Positions 6,287 to 27,419 of a DNA stretch of 64,000 bases are shown one piece after another. This stretch comes from Candidatus Nealsonbacteria bacterium (lineage in GTDB: Bacteria; Patescibacteriota; Minisyncoccia; Minisyncoccales; MHMH01). The stretch spans positions 16,696 through 80,695 of the forward strand of contig JBDRKR010000010.1 of NCBI GenBank assembly GCA_043813805.1, read 5' to 3'. The position numbers and the translations under genes were made by a program. The number at the start of each line of letters is the position of its first letter. The first letter of the stretch is position 1. The notes beneath the pieces are model-generated. The model saw only the letters and a program-made list of their open reading frames with translations. It had not been told where the DNA came from and ran no database searches.

Positions 6287-6742
6287 ATGGCAGCTGAACA
6301 GGAAGTTGTCGTCATTGATTTAGACGGAACCATTACTCGGCATGGTTTTTTCAACCTTAATATACCTCTGCCCTGGTGGTCGTGGTTTTTTTTAAGCCCC
6401 TTTTTTTTGGTTGTTTATGTTTTGGCATCAAAGCCCAAAAAAGGAATAGCAGAAAAAATGCGGGCAATGAAGAAACGAGGTTGTCGGTTTGTAATTTTAA
6501 CGCGCCGGCCACATCAGTTCTTTTGTTTCTGGATTACTAAACGATTGCTGTTATTCCATCGCATACCATTCGATAATCTTTTCTGCGTCGGGTTTGGCAG
6601 GGGAGCAAATGAACGGAAGCTGAAAATTATTAAAGAAATAAAGGCAAAGGCGTTTGTTGACAGCGACAAGCACATGGTCGAGTTTATGCAAAAAAACTCG
6701 GTTAATGCGGTAATAAGTCTCGAATATCTCGATTATAATTAA
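6287..6742 (+). CDS. HAD-like hydrolase (small, with a hydrophobic insert)
   Basis: VVIDLDGTIT matches the DxDGT motif I. ILTRRP and FVDSD resemble motifs II and IV. AGGAGG RBS is present. Confidence 0.45.
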   Translation: MAAEQEVVVIDLDGTITRHGFFNLNIPLPWWSWFFLSPFFLVVYVLASKPKKGIAEKMRAMKKRGCRFVILTRRPHQFFCFWITKRLLLFHRIPFDNLFCVGFGRGANERKLKIIKEIKAKAFVDSDKHMVEFMQKNSVNAVISLEYLDYN

Positions 6743-6811
6743 GAAAACCCCGTTCGTTAGCTCGGACGGGGTTTTACAATAGGATTTTATTACTGTAGAA
6801 TTTAAAAATAT

Positions 6812-7174
6812 ATGATTTTCTTCACATATTTCAAAAACCTGTTAAATAGCTTCAAGTTCGCCTTTTCGGGCATGAAATTAATCATTAAAGAAGAGTATGC
6901 TTTCAGGGTCATGCTTTTAGCGGCGGTTCTGGTGATTGTCGGCATGTTTTATTTTAATCTGCCCGTGATGCAAAAGGCGGTTTTGTTCATCATGATTTTC
7001 TTAGTCCTGATTTTAGAGCTGATTAATTCGGTCGTTGAAGAAGTTTTGGATTTTATTCATCCTGGATTCAACGGAAAAGTAAAAATCATCAAAGATATGC
7101 TGGCGGGCATGGTGTTGCTCGCTTCTTTAGGCGCGGCCATAATTGGCCTGTTAATCTTCCTGCCGTATTTTTAA
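6812..7174 (+). CDS. dgkA: Diacylglycerol kinase / undecaprenol kinase family (DgkA)
   Basis: The 120 aa three-TM protein carries an ELINSVVEEVLD motif, which is typical of prokaryotic DAGK. Confidence 0.7.
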   Translation: MIFFTYFKNLLNSFKFAFSGMKLIIKEEYAFRVMLLAAVLVIVGMFYFNLPVMQKAVLFIMIFLVLILELINSVVEEVLDFIHPGFNGKVKIIKDMLAGMVLLASLGAAIIGLLIFLPYF

Positions 7175-7251
7175 CAGCTTGACTTTTCGGGAAAATTGAT
7201 TAAGATAATCTATAGCTCTTTGGACAAAATAGCGTAAGAGGAGGGCAGATA

Positions 7252-7749
7252 ATGACTCTATGGAATGTTTCTCTCAAACAGCGGCAAGTGTTCATCAAGG
7301 TGAAAGAGGTTCTTCAAAAAGGGCAGGGATTTAAGATTATTGTTGACAACCGGGGAAAACAGCATCGGCTTTCCGAAGTCGATTTCCCTTCTTTCTATTG
7401 GAAGGAAATCGTCGTAGGCTCAACGATTACCTTAACCGTTTCAGAGGTTGTGACGCGTTGGCAAGTCCAGTCGCCGAAGATCGAAAAAAGCATCAAAAAG
7501 TTTATCGCTGAAGCGCAAAAAAAGAATTCAGGTCTTTTTTTTCTTTGGATTTGCGAGCACTGCAGAACGACCGGCTGCGTTGAATATGAGGACGGAGACG
7601 ATTCTCAGATAATCGCCGGACATATCATTTCGGCTCATCGGAAAGAAGCCAAACCGGATTGTTCGCAAGAGGCTATCCGTATCTTTGATCACCGGGGTGA
7701 AGAACAGAAAAATTCCGAGCTGTTGTTATCCTGTTGTAAGGTAGCGTAG
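7252..7749 (+). CDS. Hypothetical protein
   Basis: ORF with AGGAGGG RBS and an upstream TTGACT-N16-TAAGAT promoter. Confidence 0.5.
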   Translation: MTLWNVSLKQRQVFIKVKEVLQKGQGFKIIVDNRGKQHRLSEVDFPSFYWKEIVVGSTITLTVSEVVTRWQVQSPKIEKSIKKFIAEAQKKNSGLFFLWICEHCRTTGCVEYEDGDDSQIIAGHIISAHRKEAKPDCSQEAIRIFDHRGEEQKNSELLLSCCKVA

Positions 7750-11585: not shown

Positions 11586-11635
11586 TTTAAGACTCACACG
11601 AGACGGGTCGTCTAAAAGGTTATAAAGTGGTTATT

Positions 11636-11685
11636 TTGCATAGTTTCGTTCAATACTTGCATAGTTTACATAGTTTGCTATAATA
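11636..11685 (+). promoter_or_regulatory. Promoter of the HTH-GHKL gene carrying three direct TTGCATAGTTT-like repeats, ending in TATAAT 6 nt before the ATG (leaderless)
   Basis: ttgcatagtttcg ... ttgcatagtttac atagtttgc TATAAT acatcc ATG. Confidence 0.55.
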
Positions 11686-11690
11686 CATCC

Positions 11691-12410
11691 ATGGAAGAAG
11701 AATTATTAACCATAAGAGAGGCAGCCCAATTTCTTGGTGTTTCTATCGATACATTGCGGCGCTGGGATAAAAGCGGTAAATTGGTTGCCCTTAAGAAGGC
11801 GGGTGGCACGCACAGGCATTATTCAAAAAGGGACTTGGAGATATTTTCTAGCGATTTATCAAAAATGGCGAATGATTGGGCGGTTTTTGGCGGAGAAATA
11901 CCGCAGGATTTTTATTGTTCAAACAGCGCAATTTTCCAAACAAGGTTAACCAAGATGCAGGATATGCTTATGAATTACGAAAAGACAAATAAGATTTTTT
12001 CTATTATTGTTGCGGTTGCGGGCGAAATCGGCAATAATTCATACGATCACAACCTTGGGAATTGGCCTGATGCACCCGGAATATTTTTTGGTTATGATAT
12101 CCATAAGGGGATTATTGTTCTTGCCGACAGGGGATTGGGCGTTTTGAAAACCTTGAGCAGAATAAAACCGGAGCTTATAAACCACGAAGACGCTCTTCGG
12201 ACTGCTTTTACCGAAATAATTTCCGGCCGGTCTCCCGAAGAACGGGGTAATGGGTTGAAATTCGTCCGTGAAGTTATTTCAAAAAATCCAGTCGATTTAT
12301 TATTCCGAAGCGGTGATGCCGAACTTAATTTAAAGGGCGATAGCGAAGATTTAAACATCACTAAGTCAAAAATGGCTATCCGGGGCTGTTTGGCGATAAT
12401 CAAATTTTAA
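11691..12410 (+). CDS. MerR/excisionase-type HTH fused to a GHKL (RsbW-like) ATPase/serine-kinase domain
   Basis: N-terminus LTIREAAQFLGVSIDTLRRWDKSGKL is an HTH_17 type. The C-terminus has an N-box GEIGNNSYDH, a D-box DRGLG and a G-box ERGNGL. Confidence 0.6.
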   Translation: MEEELLTIREAAQFLGVSIDTLRRWDKSGKLVALKKAGGTHRHYSKRDLEIFSSDLSKMANDWAVFGGEIPQDFYCSNSAIFQTRLTKMQDMLMNYEKTNKIFSIIVAVAGEIGNNSYDHNLGNWPDAPGIFFGYDIHKGIIVLADRGLGVLKTLSRIKPELINHEDALRTAFTEIISGRSPEERGNGLKFVREVISKNPVDLLFRSGDAELNLKGDSEDLNITKSKMAIRGCLAIIKF

Positions 12411-12421
12411 TTGTAAACACT

Positions 12422-12712
12422 ATGATAATCGAGCTAAAAAAATTTGGGACAACATTGATTTCGAGACAAACGGGCAAAGAGGCGTTTGCCGCTTTTCAGC
12501 CGACATTGCAAGACATTAAACCCAAAGAAAACCTTGAAATTAATTTTGAAGGCGTTTTAACGTTTTCTCCTTCTTGGGGAGATGAGTTTTTAACCCCGCT
12601 CGCCAAAAAATTTGGCAGTCGGCTTATTTTGGTTGCTACAGGTAATCTTTCGGTGAAAGCAACGCTGGAAACATTAGAAAAAATTAGCGGCGTAAAATTT
12701 ATAATCAAATAG
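12422..12712 (+). CDS. STAS-like domain protein (DUF4325-type), probable partner of the upstream kinase
   Basis: At 96 aa it is STAS-sized. It has an [10 protein letters not shown] motif and sits 11 nt after the kinase gene. Confidence 0.5.
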
Positions 12713-12726
12713 TTAATCATAAAAAC

Positions 12727-13113
12727 ATGACTCAACTCAAACAAGTTTATCGATGCAACATTTGCGGCAATATCGTCGAAGTTTTGCATGCGGGTCAAGG
12801 CGAGCTTGTTTGCTGTGGCAAACCCATGGAATTGCTTCAAGAGAAGACTCAGGATTTAGGTCACGAAAAGCACGTGCCGGTCGTTGAGAAAACAGAGCAG
12901 GGGATTTTAGTCAAAGTGGGATCTGTCCCGCATCCCATGGAAATAACCCATTATATTGAATGGATAGAGATTATCGCTGACGGCGAATCTTACCGTAAAT
13001 TCCTGAAACCCGACGACAAACCGGAAGCGTTGTTTGGAGAAGCTTATCCCGGGCCGATTCGAATGATCACGGCCCGCGCATATTGCAACATCCACGGCTT
13101 GTGGAAGGGGTAA
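12727..13113 (+). CDS. dfx: Desulfoferrodoxin / class I superoxide reductase
   Basis: N-terminal desulforedoxin motif CNICGN...CCG. C-terminal SOR motif KHVPV...HPM..HYIEWIE...C.IHGLW. Confidence 0.85.
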
Positions 13114-13174
13114 AAAGGGAGCCGCTCTCGTAGGGCGGTTTTTCTTTTGACAAAATAGTCATACAAGGTATATC

Positions 13175-13930
13175 GTGGATGAATATATGACAAAAGATCA
13201 ATTAGAGAAGCATAAAAAAGCGGCTCAAAAGCTGTGGTTGGTCAACCAGAAGACTTTTCGCTTCATAAAAAAGAATATTGGTAAAGCGTCAGAATATGAT
13301 GTTAATAGATTCATTCTTTCTGAGTTTAAAAAACAGGGGATGGTTGCTGATAAAAAGCATCTATGCCAGATAGTGGCGGCAGGTGAGAATACGGATAAGG
13401 TGCATTATTTTCCTTTAAAAAATAAGTCAAAAATCATACAACGGAATAGTCTGATATTAATAGATACTTGGGCTAGGCTTAAAGAAAAAGATTCTCCCTT
13501 CGCCGATATCACGTGGATGGCTTATTCCGGGAAAAGCGTGCCCAAAGATATTCAGAGAGTCTTTGATAAGGTTATTAGGGCGAGAGATATTACGCTGGAT
13601 TACCTGAGAAAGAGCGTAAGAAGGGGGAAGTTTCCCAAAACAAAAGAAATAGACAAAGTAGCCAGGAAATATTTTAAAAAATTCAATTTAGAGAAAAATT
13701 TCCTCCATGGGACCGGTCACAGTCTGGGGATCAAAGAGTGCCATGGTCGGTATTTCCGCTTCGGGGAAAAAAGTGGGGCTAGATTGAAGCCGAATATACC
13801 TTTTACCATTGAACCCGGGCTTTATCTTAAGGATAAGTTCGGCGTTAGAAGTGAAATCAACTGTTACGTGGATGATAACCGCAAATTGATTGTAACTACG
13901 GAAATCCAGAATAAAATAATCAAAATTTAA
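13175..13930 (+). CDS. M24 family metallopeptidase (pita-bread fold; aminopeptidase-like)
   Basis: HGTGHSLG and EPGLY motifs are present. Confidence 0.65.
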   Translation: MDEYMTKDQLEKHKKAAQKLWLVNQKTFRFIKKNIGKASEYDVNRFILSEFKKQGMVADKKHLCQIVAAGENTDKVHYFPLKNKSKIIQRNSLILIDTWARLKEKDSPFADITWMAYSGKSVPKDIQRVFDKVIRARDITLDYLRKSVRRGKFPKTKEIDKVARKYFKKFNLEKNFLHGTGHSLGIKECHGRYFRFGEKSGARLKPNIPFTIEPGLYLKDKFGVRSEINCYVDDNRKLIVTTEIQNKIIKI

Positions 13931-27074: not shown

Positions 27075-27419
27075 ATGATGATCGAGGGAGAAATGAACCA
27101 AAGAAACAAGATAGCTGCTTTGCTGACAATCGGTTTGAGGTCTGATGCATTCAAATGGAATCTTCAGGGCACGATTTTGGACAAGTCGGCGCTCCTTCAA
27201 GCAGTCAGCAGGGAAACAAGAGAGGGGGCATTGATTGTTGAGATGGCGAGAGAGATTGTCGGCACTCGTCCAAAGAATGATTCCTATCAGCCCGGGAACA
27301 CGGCGATATGCTTGTTGTGCGGAAACGAAATACCCATCGTCAAGGCCGGTATTTTGGCCTGTTGTGGCCAGAATATGGAGATAAAGGCGCCCAGGCTCAT
27401 ACCACCCAGTTCAGATTAA
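27075..27419 (+). CDS. Hypothetical protein
   Basis: AAGGAGG RBS. Terminator hairpin at 27438-27475. Confidence 0.5.
   Translation: MMIEGEMNQRNKIAALLTIGLRSDAFKWNLQGTILDKSALLQAVSRETREGALIVEMAREIVGTRPKNDSYQPGNTAICLLCGNEIPIVKAGILACCGQNMEIKAPRLIPPSSD

What the first reader, a model, noticed from the sequence alone, without database searches (positions are those of the whole stretch)
11586..13113. HTH-GHKL kinase/ATPase plus STAS-like (DUF4325) pair directly upstream of desulfoferrodoxin; direct repeats in its leaderless promoter
Gene 11691-12410 fuses an MerR/excisionase-type HTH to a minimal RsbW-like GHKL ATPase. Its N, D and G boxes can all be read: EIGNNSYDH, DRGLG and ERGNGL.

A 96-aa STAS-like protein follows 11 nt downstream. 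The superoxide reductase gene dfx follows a further 14 nt on.

In classic partner-switching modules the kinase is an anti-sigma factor. Here it carries its own DNA-binding domain. That would make the module a self-contained one-component-like switch, possibly gating dfx (oxidative stress). Alternatively it could be an Abi/defence-type HTH-ATPase.

The promoter (11636-11685) holds three direct TTGCATAGTTT-like repeats that overlap the -35 and the spacer, and it ends 6 nt before the ATG. This looks like an autoregulatory operator.
Basis: partly seen in the sequence, partly recalled or inferred. Interest (0 to 1): 0.6.

Follow-up and report, generated by a model that had tools for sequence, protein, structure and literature searches.

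The report
Self-regulating DNA-binding kinase-like switch in CPR bacteria
This is a two-gene regulatory module, a DNA-binding GHKL ATPase/kinase-like protein plus a small STAS-like partner, that sits behind its own repeat-bearing promoter and is conserved across the tiny Patescibacteria (CPR) bacteria; its position next to the superoxide reductase gene here is a one-off accident.

Summary
In detail: all coordinates, gaps and motifs are correct. Gene A (11691-12410) is a MerR/BldC-like winged HTH fused to a minimal GHKL domain. Pfam does not detect the GHKL, but the predicted fold and 98-100 % conserved ATP-site residues show it. Gene B (12422-12712) is a DUF4325 protein with a STAS fold and an invariant serine at the phospho-acceptor position.

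The pair occurs in at least 557 species genomes across Patescibacteria. B follows A in 85 of 86 loci. dfx is a neighbour in 0 of 86, and flanking genes differ even in a 95 %-identical relative. The dfx-gating idea therefore fails as a general function. Here dfx is probably only co-transcribed (14-nt gap, terminator after dfx).

The repeats are a real operator. There are 2-5 direct copies at 20-21 nt, about 5,600-fold enriched upstream of A. The proximal copy sits 17 nt before an extended -10, and the transcript is often leaderless. Residue 20 of the recognition helix co-varies with the operator's central dinucleotide (D-CA 93/95, M-TA 14/14).

The same arrays also occur without A, beside R-M, Fic, lysin and NinG genes and in six phage contigs.

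Closest characterised analogs are CapK/CapS and VapK/VapS (2026). This is a new variant of that kind.

The parts
11636..11646 (+). Operator repeat 1, TTGCATAGTTT (distal copy)
   Evidence: The homologous copy is conserved at about -56 in orthologous loci.
11657..11667 (+). Operator repeat 2, TTGCATAGTTT, 21 nt from repeat 1. Its TTGCAT occupies the -35 position.
   Evidence: The 20-21-nt spacing is conserved. The proximal repeat lies 17 nt before the -10 in 54 of 57 loci, and 16 nt here.
11666..11676 (+). Operator repeat 3, TTACATAGTTT. An extra overlapping copy in the spacer, also present in the closest relative L007.
11676..11684 (+). Extended -10, TGcTATAAT. It ends 6 nt before the ATG, which predicts a leaderless mRNA.
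   Evidence: Sequence. TGnTAnnnT is conserved in 57 of 80 loci, and 38 of those 57 have 6-9 nt to the ATG.
11691..11852 (+). Gene A, N-terminal MerR/excisionase/BldC-like winged HTH (residues 1-54). Recognition helix about residues 19-28, wing about residues 38-41.
   Evidence: Pfam and NCBIfam. Best PDB matches are the BldC entries 6ama and 6amk. Residue 20 and residues 38-41 co-vary with operator bases.
11853..12410 (+). Gene A, helical linker (residues 55-100) plus minimal GHKL ATPase/kinase domain (about residues 100-239). N-box 12024-12050, G1 12126-12140, G2/ATP-lid 12240-12257.
   Evidence: AF2 model and Foldseek. ATP-site conservation. Weak HATPase_c_2 and HATPase_c hits in relatives. 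318 representative clusters.
12422..12712 (+). Gene B, 96-aa DUF4325 / STAS-fold partner. The S49-P-S51-W motif (nt 12566-12577) lies at the N-terminus of helix alpha2.
   Evidence: B follows A in 85 of 86 loci.
12727..13113 (+). dfx (desulfoferrodoxin). An adjacent gene, probably co-transcribed in this genome only, and not part of the conserved module.
   Evidence: TIGR00320 at 194 bits. Absent from the flanks of all 86 other loci.
13108..13152 (+). Intrinsic-terminator-like hairpin with U-tract after dfx. The likely end of the A-B-dfx transcript.
   Evidence: RNA fold -18 kcal/mol, z -3.3. No terminator or consensus promoter was found in the 11-nt and 14-nt gaps.

Best explanation
A and B form a free-standing, autoregulated signalling module of Patescibacteria. 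It works like a partner-switching pair in which the anti-sigma-type kinase is itself the transcription factor.

- **DNA binding.** A binds, through its BldC-like winged HTH, to 2-5 direct TG-NN-TAG-NNT repeats phased two helical turns apart (20-21 nt). The recognition helix reads the core and the wing reads the 3' flank. The proximal repeat occupies the -35 position of an extended -10, often leaderless, promoter. Occupancy therefore controls (most simply represses) transcription of A-B.
- **Signalling.** The C-terminal minimal GHKL domain binds ATP and docks the STAS-fold protein B. It probably phosphorylates B on S51 (or S49) at the N-cap of helix alpha2. B binding or phosphorylation is proposed to change A's oligomerisation on the repeat array and so its DNA occupancy.
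- **Outputs.** The outputs are the module's own level, any gene that happens to lie downstream without a terminator (here dfx), and a small number of identical repeat arrays elsewhere (R-M genes, mobile elements, phage genomes).

Shown by computation: the domain folds, ATP-site conservation, obligate A-B pairing, operator conservation and geometry, and HTH-operator co-variation. Inferred: repression rather than activation, the A-B physical contact, phosphotransfer, the input signal, and binding by A at the arrays away from its own promoter.
For: - **Distribution and pairing.** At least 557 species genomes across CPR lineages carry A. B lies directly downstream in 85 of 86 loci, with gaps of -3 to 58 nt.
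- **Self-contained unit.** Flanking genes are unrelated between loci.
- **GHKL domain.** Fold and ATP-site residues 98-100 % conserved in 80 divergent representatives. HATPase_c_2 is the most frequent non-HTH Pfam signal.
- **B protein.** STAS fold, best matches RsbS and SpoIIAA. S51 is invariant and S49 at least 90 % conserved, at the start of helix 50-67.
- **Deeper conservation of the pairing.** A MarR-type wHTH-GHKL is followed by a DUF4325 protein (hhalign E 1e-21). An HTH-less GHKL is followed by a DUF4325-SLT fusion (E 5e-12).
- **Operator.** 72 of 80 distinct loci have at least one repeat pair. Density is 8.75 pairs/kb upstream against 0.0016/kb in the flanks. Spacing is 21 nt (71 pairs) or 20 nt (30 pairs). 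A 17-nt spacer to TGnTAnnnT is found in 54 of 57 loci.
- **Independent retrieval.** 53 of 80 exact arrays fished from metagenomes are followed by gene A.
- **Co-variation.** D20 with CA 93/95, M20 with TA 14/14, N/S20 with NG, and wing xAGY with a GGT flank 7/7.
- **Operator type tracks HTH type.** The MarR-type variant has an inverted repeat instead, and the HTH-less variant has no array (one locus each).
- **Precedents.** BldC binds direct repeats head-to-tail (PMC5859096). [quoted passage not shown]
Against: - A does not reach any Pfam or NCBIfam GHKL threshold, and profile searches against PDB sequences find nothing for the C-terminal half.
- The best fold hits are Hsp90 and topo II ATPases, not anti-sigma kinases, so ATPase-only chemistry is possible.
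- B's STAS match has weak Foldseek E-values (about 0.1) and no sequence match to solved STAS proteins.
- No A-B complex model could be made, and no phosphatase partner was looked for.
- Co-variation was not corrected for phylogeny.
- Only one secondary array was found in 1.06 Mb of A-bearing contigs, so a physiological output beyond autoregulation is not established.
- In L093 the secondary array is CA-type while the resident A has N20.
- Secondary arrays mostly lack the promoter geometry, and some lie inside coding regions.
Confidence: 0.6

Rival explanations
1. A is an autoregulated DNA-binding GHKL ATPase, not a protein kinase. ATP-driven dimerisation or clamping of the GHKL domains (as in MORC, MutL or Hsp90-type proteins) assembles A on the repeat array. 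B is a non-phosphorylated STAS-like modulator or nucleotide-exchange-type cofactor.
For: Top structural matches are GHL ATPases (TRAP1/Hsp90, topo II). The E-x-x-x-N pair (E112, N116) is fully conserved. All operator and pairing evidence fits equally well.
Against: The domain is minimal (about 140 aa) and ends after the Bergerat fold, with no transducer domain. By my own knowledge of the families, GHL ATPases need such a domain. The N-box has His at N+4 (H120, 99 %), which I recall as typical of the kinase/anti-sigma branch. The recurrent weak Pfam signal is HATPase_c_2. B keeps an invariant Ser at the STAS phospho-site. Characterised GHKL+STAS pairs are kinase-substrate pairs.
Confidence: 0.2
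2. The module is a CapK/CapS-like controller of adjacent or mobile immune genes, or part of an anti-phage or phage-sensing circuit. A senses infection or DNA damage and controls R-M or other defence genes through the repeat arrays. Phages carry the arrays to exploit or evade it.
For: 24 of 80 exact arrays from metagenomes lack A. They face HsdM, an EcoRI-type methylase, Fic, CHAP lysins, HNH and NinG genes. Six phage-sized viral contigs carry the array without any A-like gene. L093 has A+B and a 4-copy array before hsdM on one contig. The HTH resembles MAD1 of MADS (PADLOC E 1.5e-13). CapK/CapS sets the precedent.
Against: Downstream genes of the pair are unrelated and mostly housekeeping-like (72 clusters out of 75). 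The pair sits, for example, inside a ribosomal-protein cluster. Secondary arrays near A are rare (1 in 1.06 Mb). A lacks CapK's internal STAS domain and B lacks CapS's wHTH (sequence). Neither protein matches a PADLOC model beyond A's HTH. The hosts of the array-bearing phage contigs are unknown.
Confidence: 0.15
3. One reading: the module is a dedicated oxidative-stress switch that gates dfx.
For: In this window dfx starts 14 nt after B. No consensus promoter or terminator was detected between them, and a strong terminator follows dfx. A has exactly two cysteines, C76 and C233, both conserved in CPR orthologs, which could in principle sense redox.
Against: dfx is within 4-5 kb of the pair in 0 of 86 other loci, including a 95 %-identical relative. 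The module is equally conserved in unrelated contexts.
Confidence: 0.05

Closest known systems
CapK/CapS and VapK/VapS/VapC (Chambers et al., EMBO J 2026, PMC13373217)
   Same: A GHKL anti-sigma-like kinase is encoded next to a small STAS protein with an absolutely conserved Ser on helix alpha2 (CapS S54, VapS S48; here B S51/S49). HTH domains are part of the pair, and the pair autoregulates its own promoter region. VapS is a roughly 93-aa STAS domain like B. [quoted passage not shown] By my inference, not tested, this suggests VapS belongs to DUF4325.
   Different: CapK is HTH-STAS-GHKL, and its HTH had no detectable role. The DNA-binding repressor is the substrate CapS (STAS-wHTH), which binds palindromes as a dimer. 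Here the kinase-like protein has no internal STAS domain and carries the operator-reading HTH. The STAS partner has no DNA-binding domain, and the operator is a phased direct-repeat array. CapKS sits upstream of immune operons in Proteobacteria. This pair is a near-universal chromosomal gene pair of CPR with no conserved cargo. Sequence relatedness to CapK or VapK could not be tested because I had no sequences.
RsbW-RsbV / SpoIIAB-SpoIIAA partner-switching modules (HATPase_c_2 + STAS)
   Same: A minimal, roughly 140-aa GHKL domain with an E-x-x-x-N-x-x-x-H N-box, DxGxG and a G-rich lid. A single-domain STAS partner encoded adjacently, with a Ser at the N-cap of alpha2. B's best fold matches include SpoIIAA taken from its complex with SpoIIAB (1tid_B, 1th8_B).
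   Different: No sigma factor is associated. The kinase-like protein is fused to an HTH, so the output is direct DNA binding. Neither protein reaches the Pfam thresholds of HATPase_c_2 or STAS. No PP2C phosphatase partner was seen in the module.
BldC family of MerR-like regulators (Schumacher et al. 2018, PMC5859096)
   Same: A MerR-type wHTH without the MerR coiled coil. The best PDB sequence matches are BldC entries (6ama, 6amk). It binds a variable number of direct repeats, and BldC does so head-to-tail as cooperative multimers.
   Different: BldC is a 68-aa stand-alone domain whose two protomers occupy a 22-bp site. Here the repeats are 20-21 nt apart, and the HTH is tethered to a GHKL domain that probably supplies the oligomerisation and signal input. 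The NF033787 BldC model scores 26.7 bits against a cut-off of 77.
MAD1 HTH of methylation-associated defence systems (PADLOC mads_1)
   Same: The N-terminal 60 residues match the mad1 profile end to end (E 1.5e-13).
   Different: Only the HTH matches. NCBIfam antiphage_MADS1 scores 12.9 bits against a cut-off of 80. No other MADS component is present.

Membership tests
GHKL (Bergerat-fold) ATPase/kinase superfamily | N-box E-x-x-x-N (catalytic Glu and Mg-binding Asn) | tested here: met
   E112-I-G-N-N116, each 99 % conserved in 80 divergent representatives.
GHKL (Bergerat-fold) ATPase/kinase superfamily | G1 box DxGxG and G2 / ATP-lid glycines | tested here: met
   D146-R-G-L-G150 is 98-99 % conserved. 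R185-G-N-G-L-K190 is 96-100 % conserved. The lid region 181-186 has low pLDDT, as expected for a flexible lid.
GHKL (Bergerat-fold) ATPase/kinase superfamily | Bergerat alpha/beta sandwich fold | tested here: met
GHKL (Bergerat-fold) ATPase/kinase superfamily | Pfam HATPase_c / HATPase_c_2 gathering score | tested here: not met
   No hit for A at E<1. Relatives reach only E 5e-4 to 0.05, below the cut-offs of 26.4 and 27.4 bits.
Anti-sigma-factor Ser kinases (RsbW/SpoIIAB type) | Minimal GHKL domain without DHp or transducer domains, with an adjacent single-domain STAS substrate | tested here: met
   The domain spans about residues 100-239 and ends the protein. B follows in 85 of 86 loci.
Anti-sigma-factor Ser kinases (RsbW/SpoIIAB type) | Binds and inhibits a cognate sigma factor | not testable with these tools
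   No sigma factor gene is a conserved neighbour. The HTH fusion argues for a different output.
Anti-sigma-factor Ser kinases (RsbW/SpoIIAB type) | Phosphorylates the STAS partner on a conserved Ser | not testable with these tools
   This needs biochemistry or co-folding. Only the conserved Ser and the intact ATP site are shown.
STAS domain / DUF4325 (PF14213) | Pfam PF14213 gathering score (23 bits) | tested here: inconclusive
   B itself scores 18.7 bits. Many homologs at 68-79 % identity carry PF14213, and the L089 partner scores 24 bits.
STAS domain / DUF4325 (PF14213) | STAS fold (beta-alpha-beta core as in SpoIIAA and RsbS) | tested here: met
   AF2 pLDDT is 93. The best PDB matches are 6jhk RsbS, 1tid_B SpoIIAA and 4hyl (TM 0.67-0.70, rmsd about 3 A, prob 0.93-0.98), but E is only about 0.1-0.2.
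STAS domain / DUF4325 (PF14213) | Conserved Ser/Thr at the N-terminus of helix alpha2 (phospho-acceptor in SpoIIAA S58, CapS S54, VapS S48) | tested here: met
   S51 is invariant and S49 at least 90 % conserved, directly before helix 50-67. The exact structural register was not verified residue by residue.
CapK/CapS regulators | Kinase architecture HTH-STAS-GHKL | tested here: not met
   Residues 55-100 of A form only two helices, too short for a STAS domain.
CapK/CapS regulators | Substrate architecture STAS-wHTH that binds palindromic operators | tested here: not met
   B is 96 aa and STAS only. The operator consists of direct repeats.
CapK/CapS regulators | Encoded immediately upstream of an immune operon | tested here: not met
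   Downstream genes fall into 72 clusters out of 75, and 20 of 75 are on the opposite strand.
BldC family | MerR-like wHTH without coiled coil that binds direct repeats | tested here: inconclusive
   The HTH is nearest to BldC in the PDB (E 5e-5), and the operator is a direct-repeat array. NF033787 scores 26.7 bits against a cut-off of 77, and binding is inferred only.
MADS MAD1 | NCBIfam NF047737 cut-off and presence of other MADS genes | tested here: not met
   12.9 bits against 80. Only the PADLOC mad1 HTH profile matches.
Desulfoferrodoxin (for the neighbour gene) | TIGR00320 equivalog cut-off, both domains present | tested here: met
   194.4 bits against 146.9. Desulfoferrod_N and Desulfoferrodox are both present.

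The most novel reading that the evidence does not exclude
The pair is a phylum-wide master switch of Patescibacteria, and the first partner-switching module in which the anti-sigma-type kinase is itself the transcription factor. Its operator 'code' (residue 20 and wing against repeat bases) is shared with arrays carried by CPR phages, R-M systems and mobile islands. Phages and mobile DNA would then plug into, titrate or are silenced by the host's A-B state. That would be a host-parasite regulatory interface in organisms with almost no other known regulators.
Probability: 0.2. Interest if true: 0.85.

Novelty: new variant of a known kind. Interest (0 to 1): 0.62.

Why it matters
By general knowledge, Patescibacteria have tiny genomes, few recognisable transcription factors and almost no experimentally characterised regulation. 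Here, a protein annotated only as 'helix-turn-helix domain-containing' turns out to have four notable properties:
- It is a conserved DNA-binding GHKL protein with an obligate STAS-like partner.
- It is present in hundreds of CPR species.
- Its operator can be read from sequence.
- It has a simple recognition code (D20/CA, M20/TA, wing/flank) that makes sharp, cheap predictions for EMSA and mutagenesis.

The finding gives the uncharacterised DUF4325 family a concrete functional context in CPR. It extends the newly described CapK/CapS-VapK/VapS principle (GHKL kinase plus STAS substrate controlling non-sigma outputs) to a different wiring. It also points to identical binding-site arrays in phage and R-M contexts. 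Finally, it corrects a tempting but wrong functional link to superoxide reductase.

Tried and rejected
- **Sequence searches for the C-terminal half.** Pfam, NCBIfam and PADLOC scans of A and B found only the HTH. Single-sequence and profile searches against PDB sequences also found only the HTH. The B profile against the PDB found nothing.
- **dfx linkage.** Rejected: 0 of 86 loci and no shared synteny even at 95 % identity.
- **Conserved downstream cargo (CapKS-like).** Rejected: 72 clusters out of 75.
- **Regulon in this window.** No other array in 64 kb, and motif counts at 2 mismatches or fewer equal the shuffled expectation.
- **Paralogous small HTH genes next to the arrays without A.** None found.
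- **Gene A on phages.** Essentially absent, 1 of 2.9 million contigs.
- **Literature.** Searches for DUF4325, for CPR + anti-sigma + STAS, and for the motif string gave no prior description of this module.
- **Promoter scan.** The consensus scan missed the promoter because the -35 hexamer matches only 3 of 6. It was recognised from the extended -10 and from conservation instead.
- **Limits.** No A:B co-fold was possible (single-chain tool, cap reached).
Full report
**1. What is in the window**

A is 11691-12410 (239 aa). B is 12422-12712 (96 aa), after an 11-nt gap. dfx is 12727-13113, after a 14-nt gap. The window matches a Candidatus Nealsonbacteria MAG; protein P0001 is 100 % identical to A. 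Upstream is a TspO/MBR gene and downstream an M24 peptidase gene.

**2. Protein A**

The N-terminal ~50 residues are a MerR/excisionase-type winged HTH: PF00376 at 40 bits, HTH_17 at 36.9 bits and TIGR01764 at 29.3 bits. Its nearest solved relatives by sequence are the BldC entries 6ama and 6amk. It also matches the PADLOC mad1 HTH profile end to end (E 1.5e-13).

No library detects a domain in the C-terminal 185 residues.
- An alignment of 30 orthologs shows GEIGNNSxDHNLGxWPD, DRGxG and PExRGNGLKFVR as invariant blocks.
- An AF2 model built on that alignment is confident (pLDDT 84, pTM 0.77). Its only disordered stretch lies at residues 181-186, where an ATP lid would be.
- Every top Foldseek hit in the PDB is a GHKL protein: TRAP1/Hsp90/Grp94 and the ASFV topoisomerase II ATPase domain, with E about 1e-4 and prob about 1.0.
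- An exhaustive HMMER search with the C-terminal half alone found a compact family of 318 clusters at 50 % identity. In 80 full-length divergent members, E112, N116, H120, D146, G148, G150 and R185-G-N-G-L-K190 are 96-100 % conserved.

When those 80 members were scanned one by one, the only recurrent non-HTH Pfam families were HATPase_c_2 (18 members) and HATPase_c (10 members). All of these hits were below threshold.

The domain is minimal, about 140 aa, and ends the protein. Its N-box has the form E-x-x-x-N-x-x-x-H. By my own knowledge of these families, both features are typical of the histidine-kinase/anti-sigma-kinase branch rather than of GyrB, Hsp90 or MutL.

I therefore accept 'HTH fused to a minimal RsbW-like GHKL domain'. 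It is shown at the fold and motif level and fails the formal Pfam cut-offs.

**3. Protein B**

B scores below the DUF4325 cut-off (18.7 against 23 bits). However, many homologs at 68-79 % identity carry PF14213. The AF2 model is very confident (pLDDT 93). Its best PDB matches are STAS proteins: RsbS 6jhk, SpoIIAA from the SpoIIAB complex (1tid_B, 1th8_B), and anti-sigma-factor antagonists. TM is 0.67-0.70 and prob 0.93-0.98, although E-values are only about 0.1-0.2.

S51 is invariant and S49 at least 90 % conserved. Both sit immediately before helix 50-67. This is the position of the phospho-serine in SpoIIAA (S58), CapS (S54) and VapS (S48), as described in PMC13373217.

**4. The pair is the unit; dfx is not part of it**

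All named ones are Patescibacteria, from many lineages: Nealson-, Berkel-, Peri-, Yanofsky-, Staskawicz-, Doudna-, Giovannoni-, Moran-, Magasanik- and Colwellbacteria among others. Protein identity is 54-95 %.
- In 86 loci, B lies directly downstream in 85, with gaps of -3 to 58 nt. The single exception is a contig end. dfx is within the 4-5-kb flanks in none.
- The contexts are unrelated. Examples are a gap in the S10 ribosomal-protein cluster, downstream of a DEAD-box helicase, and next to SpoIID and glycosyltransferase genes.
- The gene after B is co-directional in 55 of 75 loci, and these genes fall into 72 sequence clusters.
- Even a relative with 95 % identical A shares none of the window's neighbours.
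- Gene A is almost absent from viral contigs, 1 of 2.9 million.

So this is a chromosomal, self-contained two-gene module. The superoxide reductase link is a local accident.

In this genome dfx is nevertheless probably co-transcribed. No consensus promoter or terminator was detected in the 14-nt gap, and a strong hairpin with a U-tract follows dfx (-18 kcal/mol, z -3.3).

**5. The promoter and operator**

The window has TTGCATAGTTT at 11636 and 11657 (21 nt apart) and an overlapping TTACATAGTTT at 11666. TGcTATAAT follows, ending 6 nt before the ATG. This could be chance in one genome, but conservation rules that out.
- Across 80 distinct orthologous loci, 72 have at least one pair of TG-NN-TAG motifs 19-22 nt apart within 150 nt upstream of A.
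- The density is 8.75 pairs per kb there, against 0.0016 per kb in the flanks on both strands.
- The spacing is 21 nt (71 pairs) or 20 nt (30 pairs), and most loci have 2-4 copies.
- In 57 of 80 loci the proximal repeat is followed by TGnTAnnnT. The spacer is exactly 17 nt in 54 of those 57 (it is 16 nt here).
- In 38 of the 57, only 6-9 nt separate the -10 hexamer from the ATG, so the mRNA is leaderless or nearly so. The rest have longer leaders, and 5 of 16 of those show an SD-like motif.
- As an independent check, I fished exact two-copy arrays out of metagenome contigs. Gene A lay directly behind 53 of 80 arrays.

**6. A itself reads the repeats**

The motif varies by lineage: TTGCATAGTTT..AGATT..AGGGT, TGTATAGATT and TG(A/G/T)GTAGATT. 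In 117 non-redundant loci, the central dinucleotide co-varies most strongly with residue 20, the first residue of the predicted recognition helix. The 3' flank co-varies with residues 38-41, the predicted wing.

| HTH feature | Operator feature | Count |
|---|---|---|
| D20 | CA core | 93/95 |
| M20 | TA core | 14/14 |
| N/S20 | (A/G/T)G core | 4/5 |
| wing x-A-G-Y | GGT flank | 7/7 |

M20 and N20 each occur with two different wing types. This suggests the association does not rest on a single clade, but I did not correct for phylogeny.

Two further observations fit, with one locus each. A relative whose GHKL domain is fused to a MarR-type wHTH has a 13-nt inverted repeat over its promoter instead. 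An HTH-less relative has no array.

BldC is the structural precedent. It is a MerR-like wHTH without a coiled coil that binds variable numbers of direct repeats head-to-tail as cooperative multimers (PMC5859096).

**7. The GHKL-DUF4325 pairing is older than the HTH fusion**

- In a Magasanikbacteria genome, a MarR/HTH_24-GHKL protein is followed by a 92-aa DUF4325 protein (Pfam 24 bits; hhalign against the B family E 1e-21).
- An HTH-less 192-aa GHKL protein is followed, with a 4-nt overlap, by a 330-aa protein. Its first 93 residues are B-like (hhalign E 5e-12) and its C-terminus is an SLT lytic transglycosylase.
- Among 80 divergent family members the N-terminal domain is MerR-type in 28, HTH_24/MarR in 9/7, Xre in 3 and ArsR in 3, and 37 have no N-terminal extension.

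This modularity, a constant GHKL+STAS core with swappable output domains, is what one expects of a signalling pair.

**8. Mechanism proposed**

A assembles on the phased repeats through its wHTH. The proximal site overlaps the -35 position of an extended -10 promoter, so occupancy most simply represses A-B, although class-II-type activation cannot be excluded. The GHKL domain binds ATP and docks B. B is probably phosphorylated on S51 or S49, and the B-bound or ATP state changes A's oligomerisation and hence its DNA occupancy.

Shown by computation: folds, ATP-site and Ser conservation, obligate pairing, operator conservation, geometry and co-variation. Inferred: A-B contact, phosphotransfer, the sign of regulation and the input signal.

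The main rival is the same architecture with ATPase-only chemistry, because the nearest folds are Hsp90 and topo II.

**9. Arrays away from gene A**

- Of the 80 exact arrays from metagenomes, 24 have room for gene A but lack it.
- The genes facing them include HsdM (N6_Mtase + HsdM_N), an EcoRI-type adenine methylase (408 bits), Fic, two CHAP endolysins, an HNH endonuclease, NinG and Cpn10.
- None of these loci encodes an A-like HTH next to the array.
- Six viral contigs of 20-46 kb carry the exact array and encode no A-like HTH, GHKL or B. Three of those arrays are intergenic and three lie inside ORFs.
- One contig (L093) carries A+B and, 5 kb away, a four-copy TTGCATAGTTT array in front of hsdM, in an island with Fic, nucleotidyltransferase-like and RadC-like genes (the last two are judged from sequence only).
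- On the other hand, across 139 A-bearing contigs (1.06 Mb) that is the only secondary array.
- Secondary arrays mostly lack the promoter geometry.
- L093's own A has N20 with a degenerate operator, while the hsdM array is CA-type.

I regard trans-binding of A to phage and R-M arrays as an open and interesting possibility, not a finding.

**10. Comparison with known systems and novelty**

The closest characterised systems are CapK/CapS and VapK/VapS/VapC (Chambers et al. 2026, PMC13373217). In those, a GHKL anti-sigma-like kinase phosphorylates a conserved Ser of a STAS protein to release a repressor from DNA or a toxin from its antitoxin. A 2017 catalogue already noted a VapC subgroup coupled to DUF4325 genes.

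The present module works like these but fails their defining architecture. It has no internal STAS domain in the kinase and no wHTH on the substrate. It has direct-repeat rather than palindromic operators and no immune cargo. Its distribution is phylum-wide and housekeeping-like.

It also differs from RsbW/RsbV-type modules by lacking a sigma factor and carrying its own HTH.

I found no description of it in the searchable literature. Public annotations read only 'helix-turn-helix domain-containing protein', 'excisionase family DNA binding protein' or 'DUF4325/hypothetical'.

Verdict: a real, well-supported feature and a new variant of a known kind, of moderate-to-high interest. The dfx connection is wrong as a general function.

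Noticed in passing
L087:4001-5568 (also L088): An HTH-less relative of the GHKL domain (192 aa) is followed, with a 4-nt overlap, by a 330-aa protein. That protein fuses a B-like DUF4325 N-terminus (hhalign E 5e-12) to an SLT lytic transglycosylase domain. This suggests a GHKL/STAS switch that controls a cell-wall hydrolase.
   Followed up: partly
L089:3860-5084: A Magasanikbacteria variant has a MarR/HTH_24-type wHTH fused to the same GHKL domain, followed by a 92-aa DUF4325 gene that overlaps it by 11 nt. It is flanked by two TrmB-like regulators. Its promoter region carries a 13-nt inverted repeat (ATTATAGTTTATA / TATAAACTATTAT) instead of direct repeats.
   Followed up: partly
L093 (array-oriented strand, as): A+B at 6614-7653, array at 12651-12721: The same contig holds A+B, with a degenerate TG-NN-TAGATT operator and an N20 recognition helix. 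It also holds a perfect four-copy TTGCATAGTTT array 94 nt upstream of an hsdM-like gene, preceded by Fic-like, nucleotidyltransferase-like and RadC-like ORFs.
   Followed up: partly
L210-L215 (IMG/VR UViGs, 20-46 kb); L101, L133, L130, L111, L118, L145: Exact operator arrays occur in phage-sized viral contigs and on contigs next to CHAP endolysin, NinG, HNH, EcoRI-type methylase and Fic genes. No A-like gene is nearby. In L210, L213 and L214 the arrays lie inside coding regions. In L213 the two copies sit in different reading frames of a GroEL-like ORF.
   Followed up: partly
window 11916-11918 (C76) and 12387-12389 (C233): Protein A has exactly two cysteines. C76 is at least 90 % conserved and C233 is invariant among the 30 CPR orthologs (C233 is 56 % conserved across the wider family). 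This could be a redox-sensitive pair. Their distance in the model could not be measured.
   Followed up: no
L021, L039, L083 (gene after B); L093; L145: Fic/DOC-family proteins recur near the module or near orphan arrays. They form the only 3-member cluster among 75 downstream genes. One lies in the L093 island and one faces the L145 array.
   Followed up: no
L116: about 60 nt after the array at 384-415: An orphan array is followed by an ORF starting MKIELSKFGTT, which is B-like. Neither A nor a full-length B is detectable, so this may be a decayed copy of the module.
   Followed up: no
window 13147-13190: A near-consensus promoter (TTGACA, 18 nt, TATCGT) sits directly before the M24 peptidase gene (GTG 13175 or ATG 13187). 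This would be another very short or absent leader, hinting that leaderless transcripts may be common in this genome.
   Followed up: no
window 27309-27383: A weak second match to the N-terminal rubredoxin-like domain of dfx (44 % over 27 aa, E 0.001). This may be another small iron-binding or zinc-ribbon protein.
   Followed up: no
L105:150-300; L090:530-610: Some orphan arrays are true tandem repeats: a 20-nt unit TTG(C/T)ATAGTTTCTGAACTTC repeated at least 5 times in L105, and 10-nt units in L090. Not every array is therefore a 2-5-site operator.
   Followed up: no
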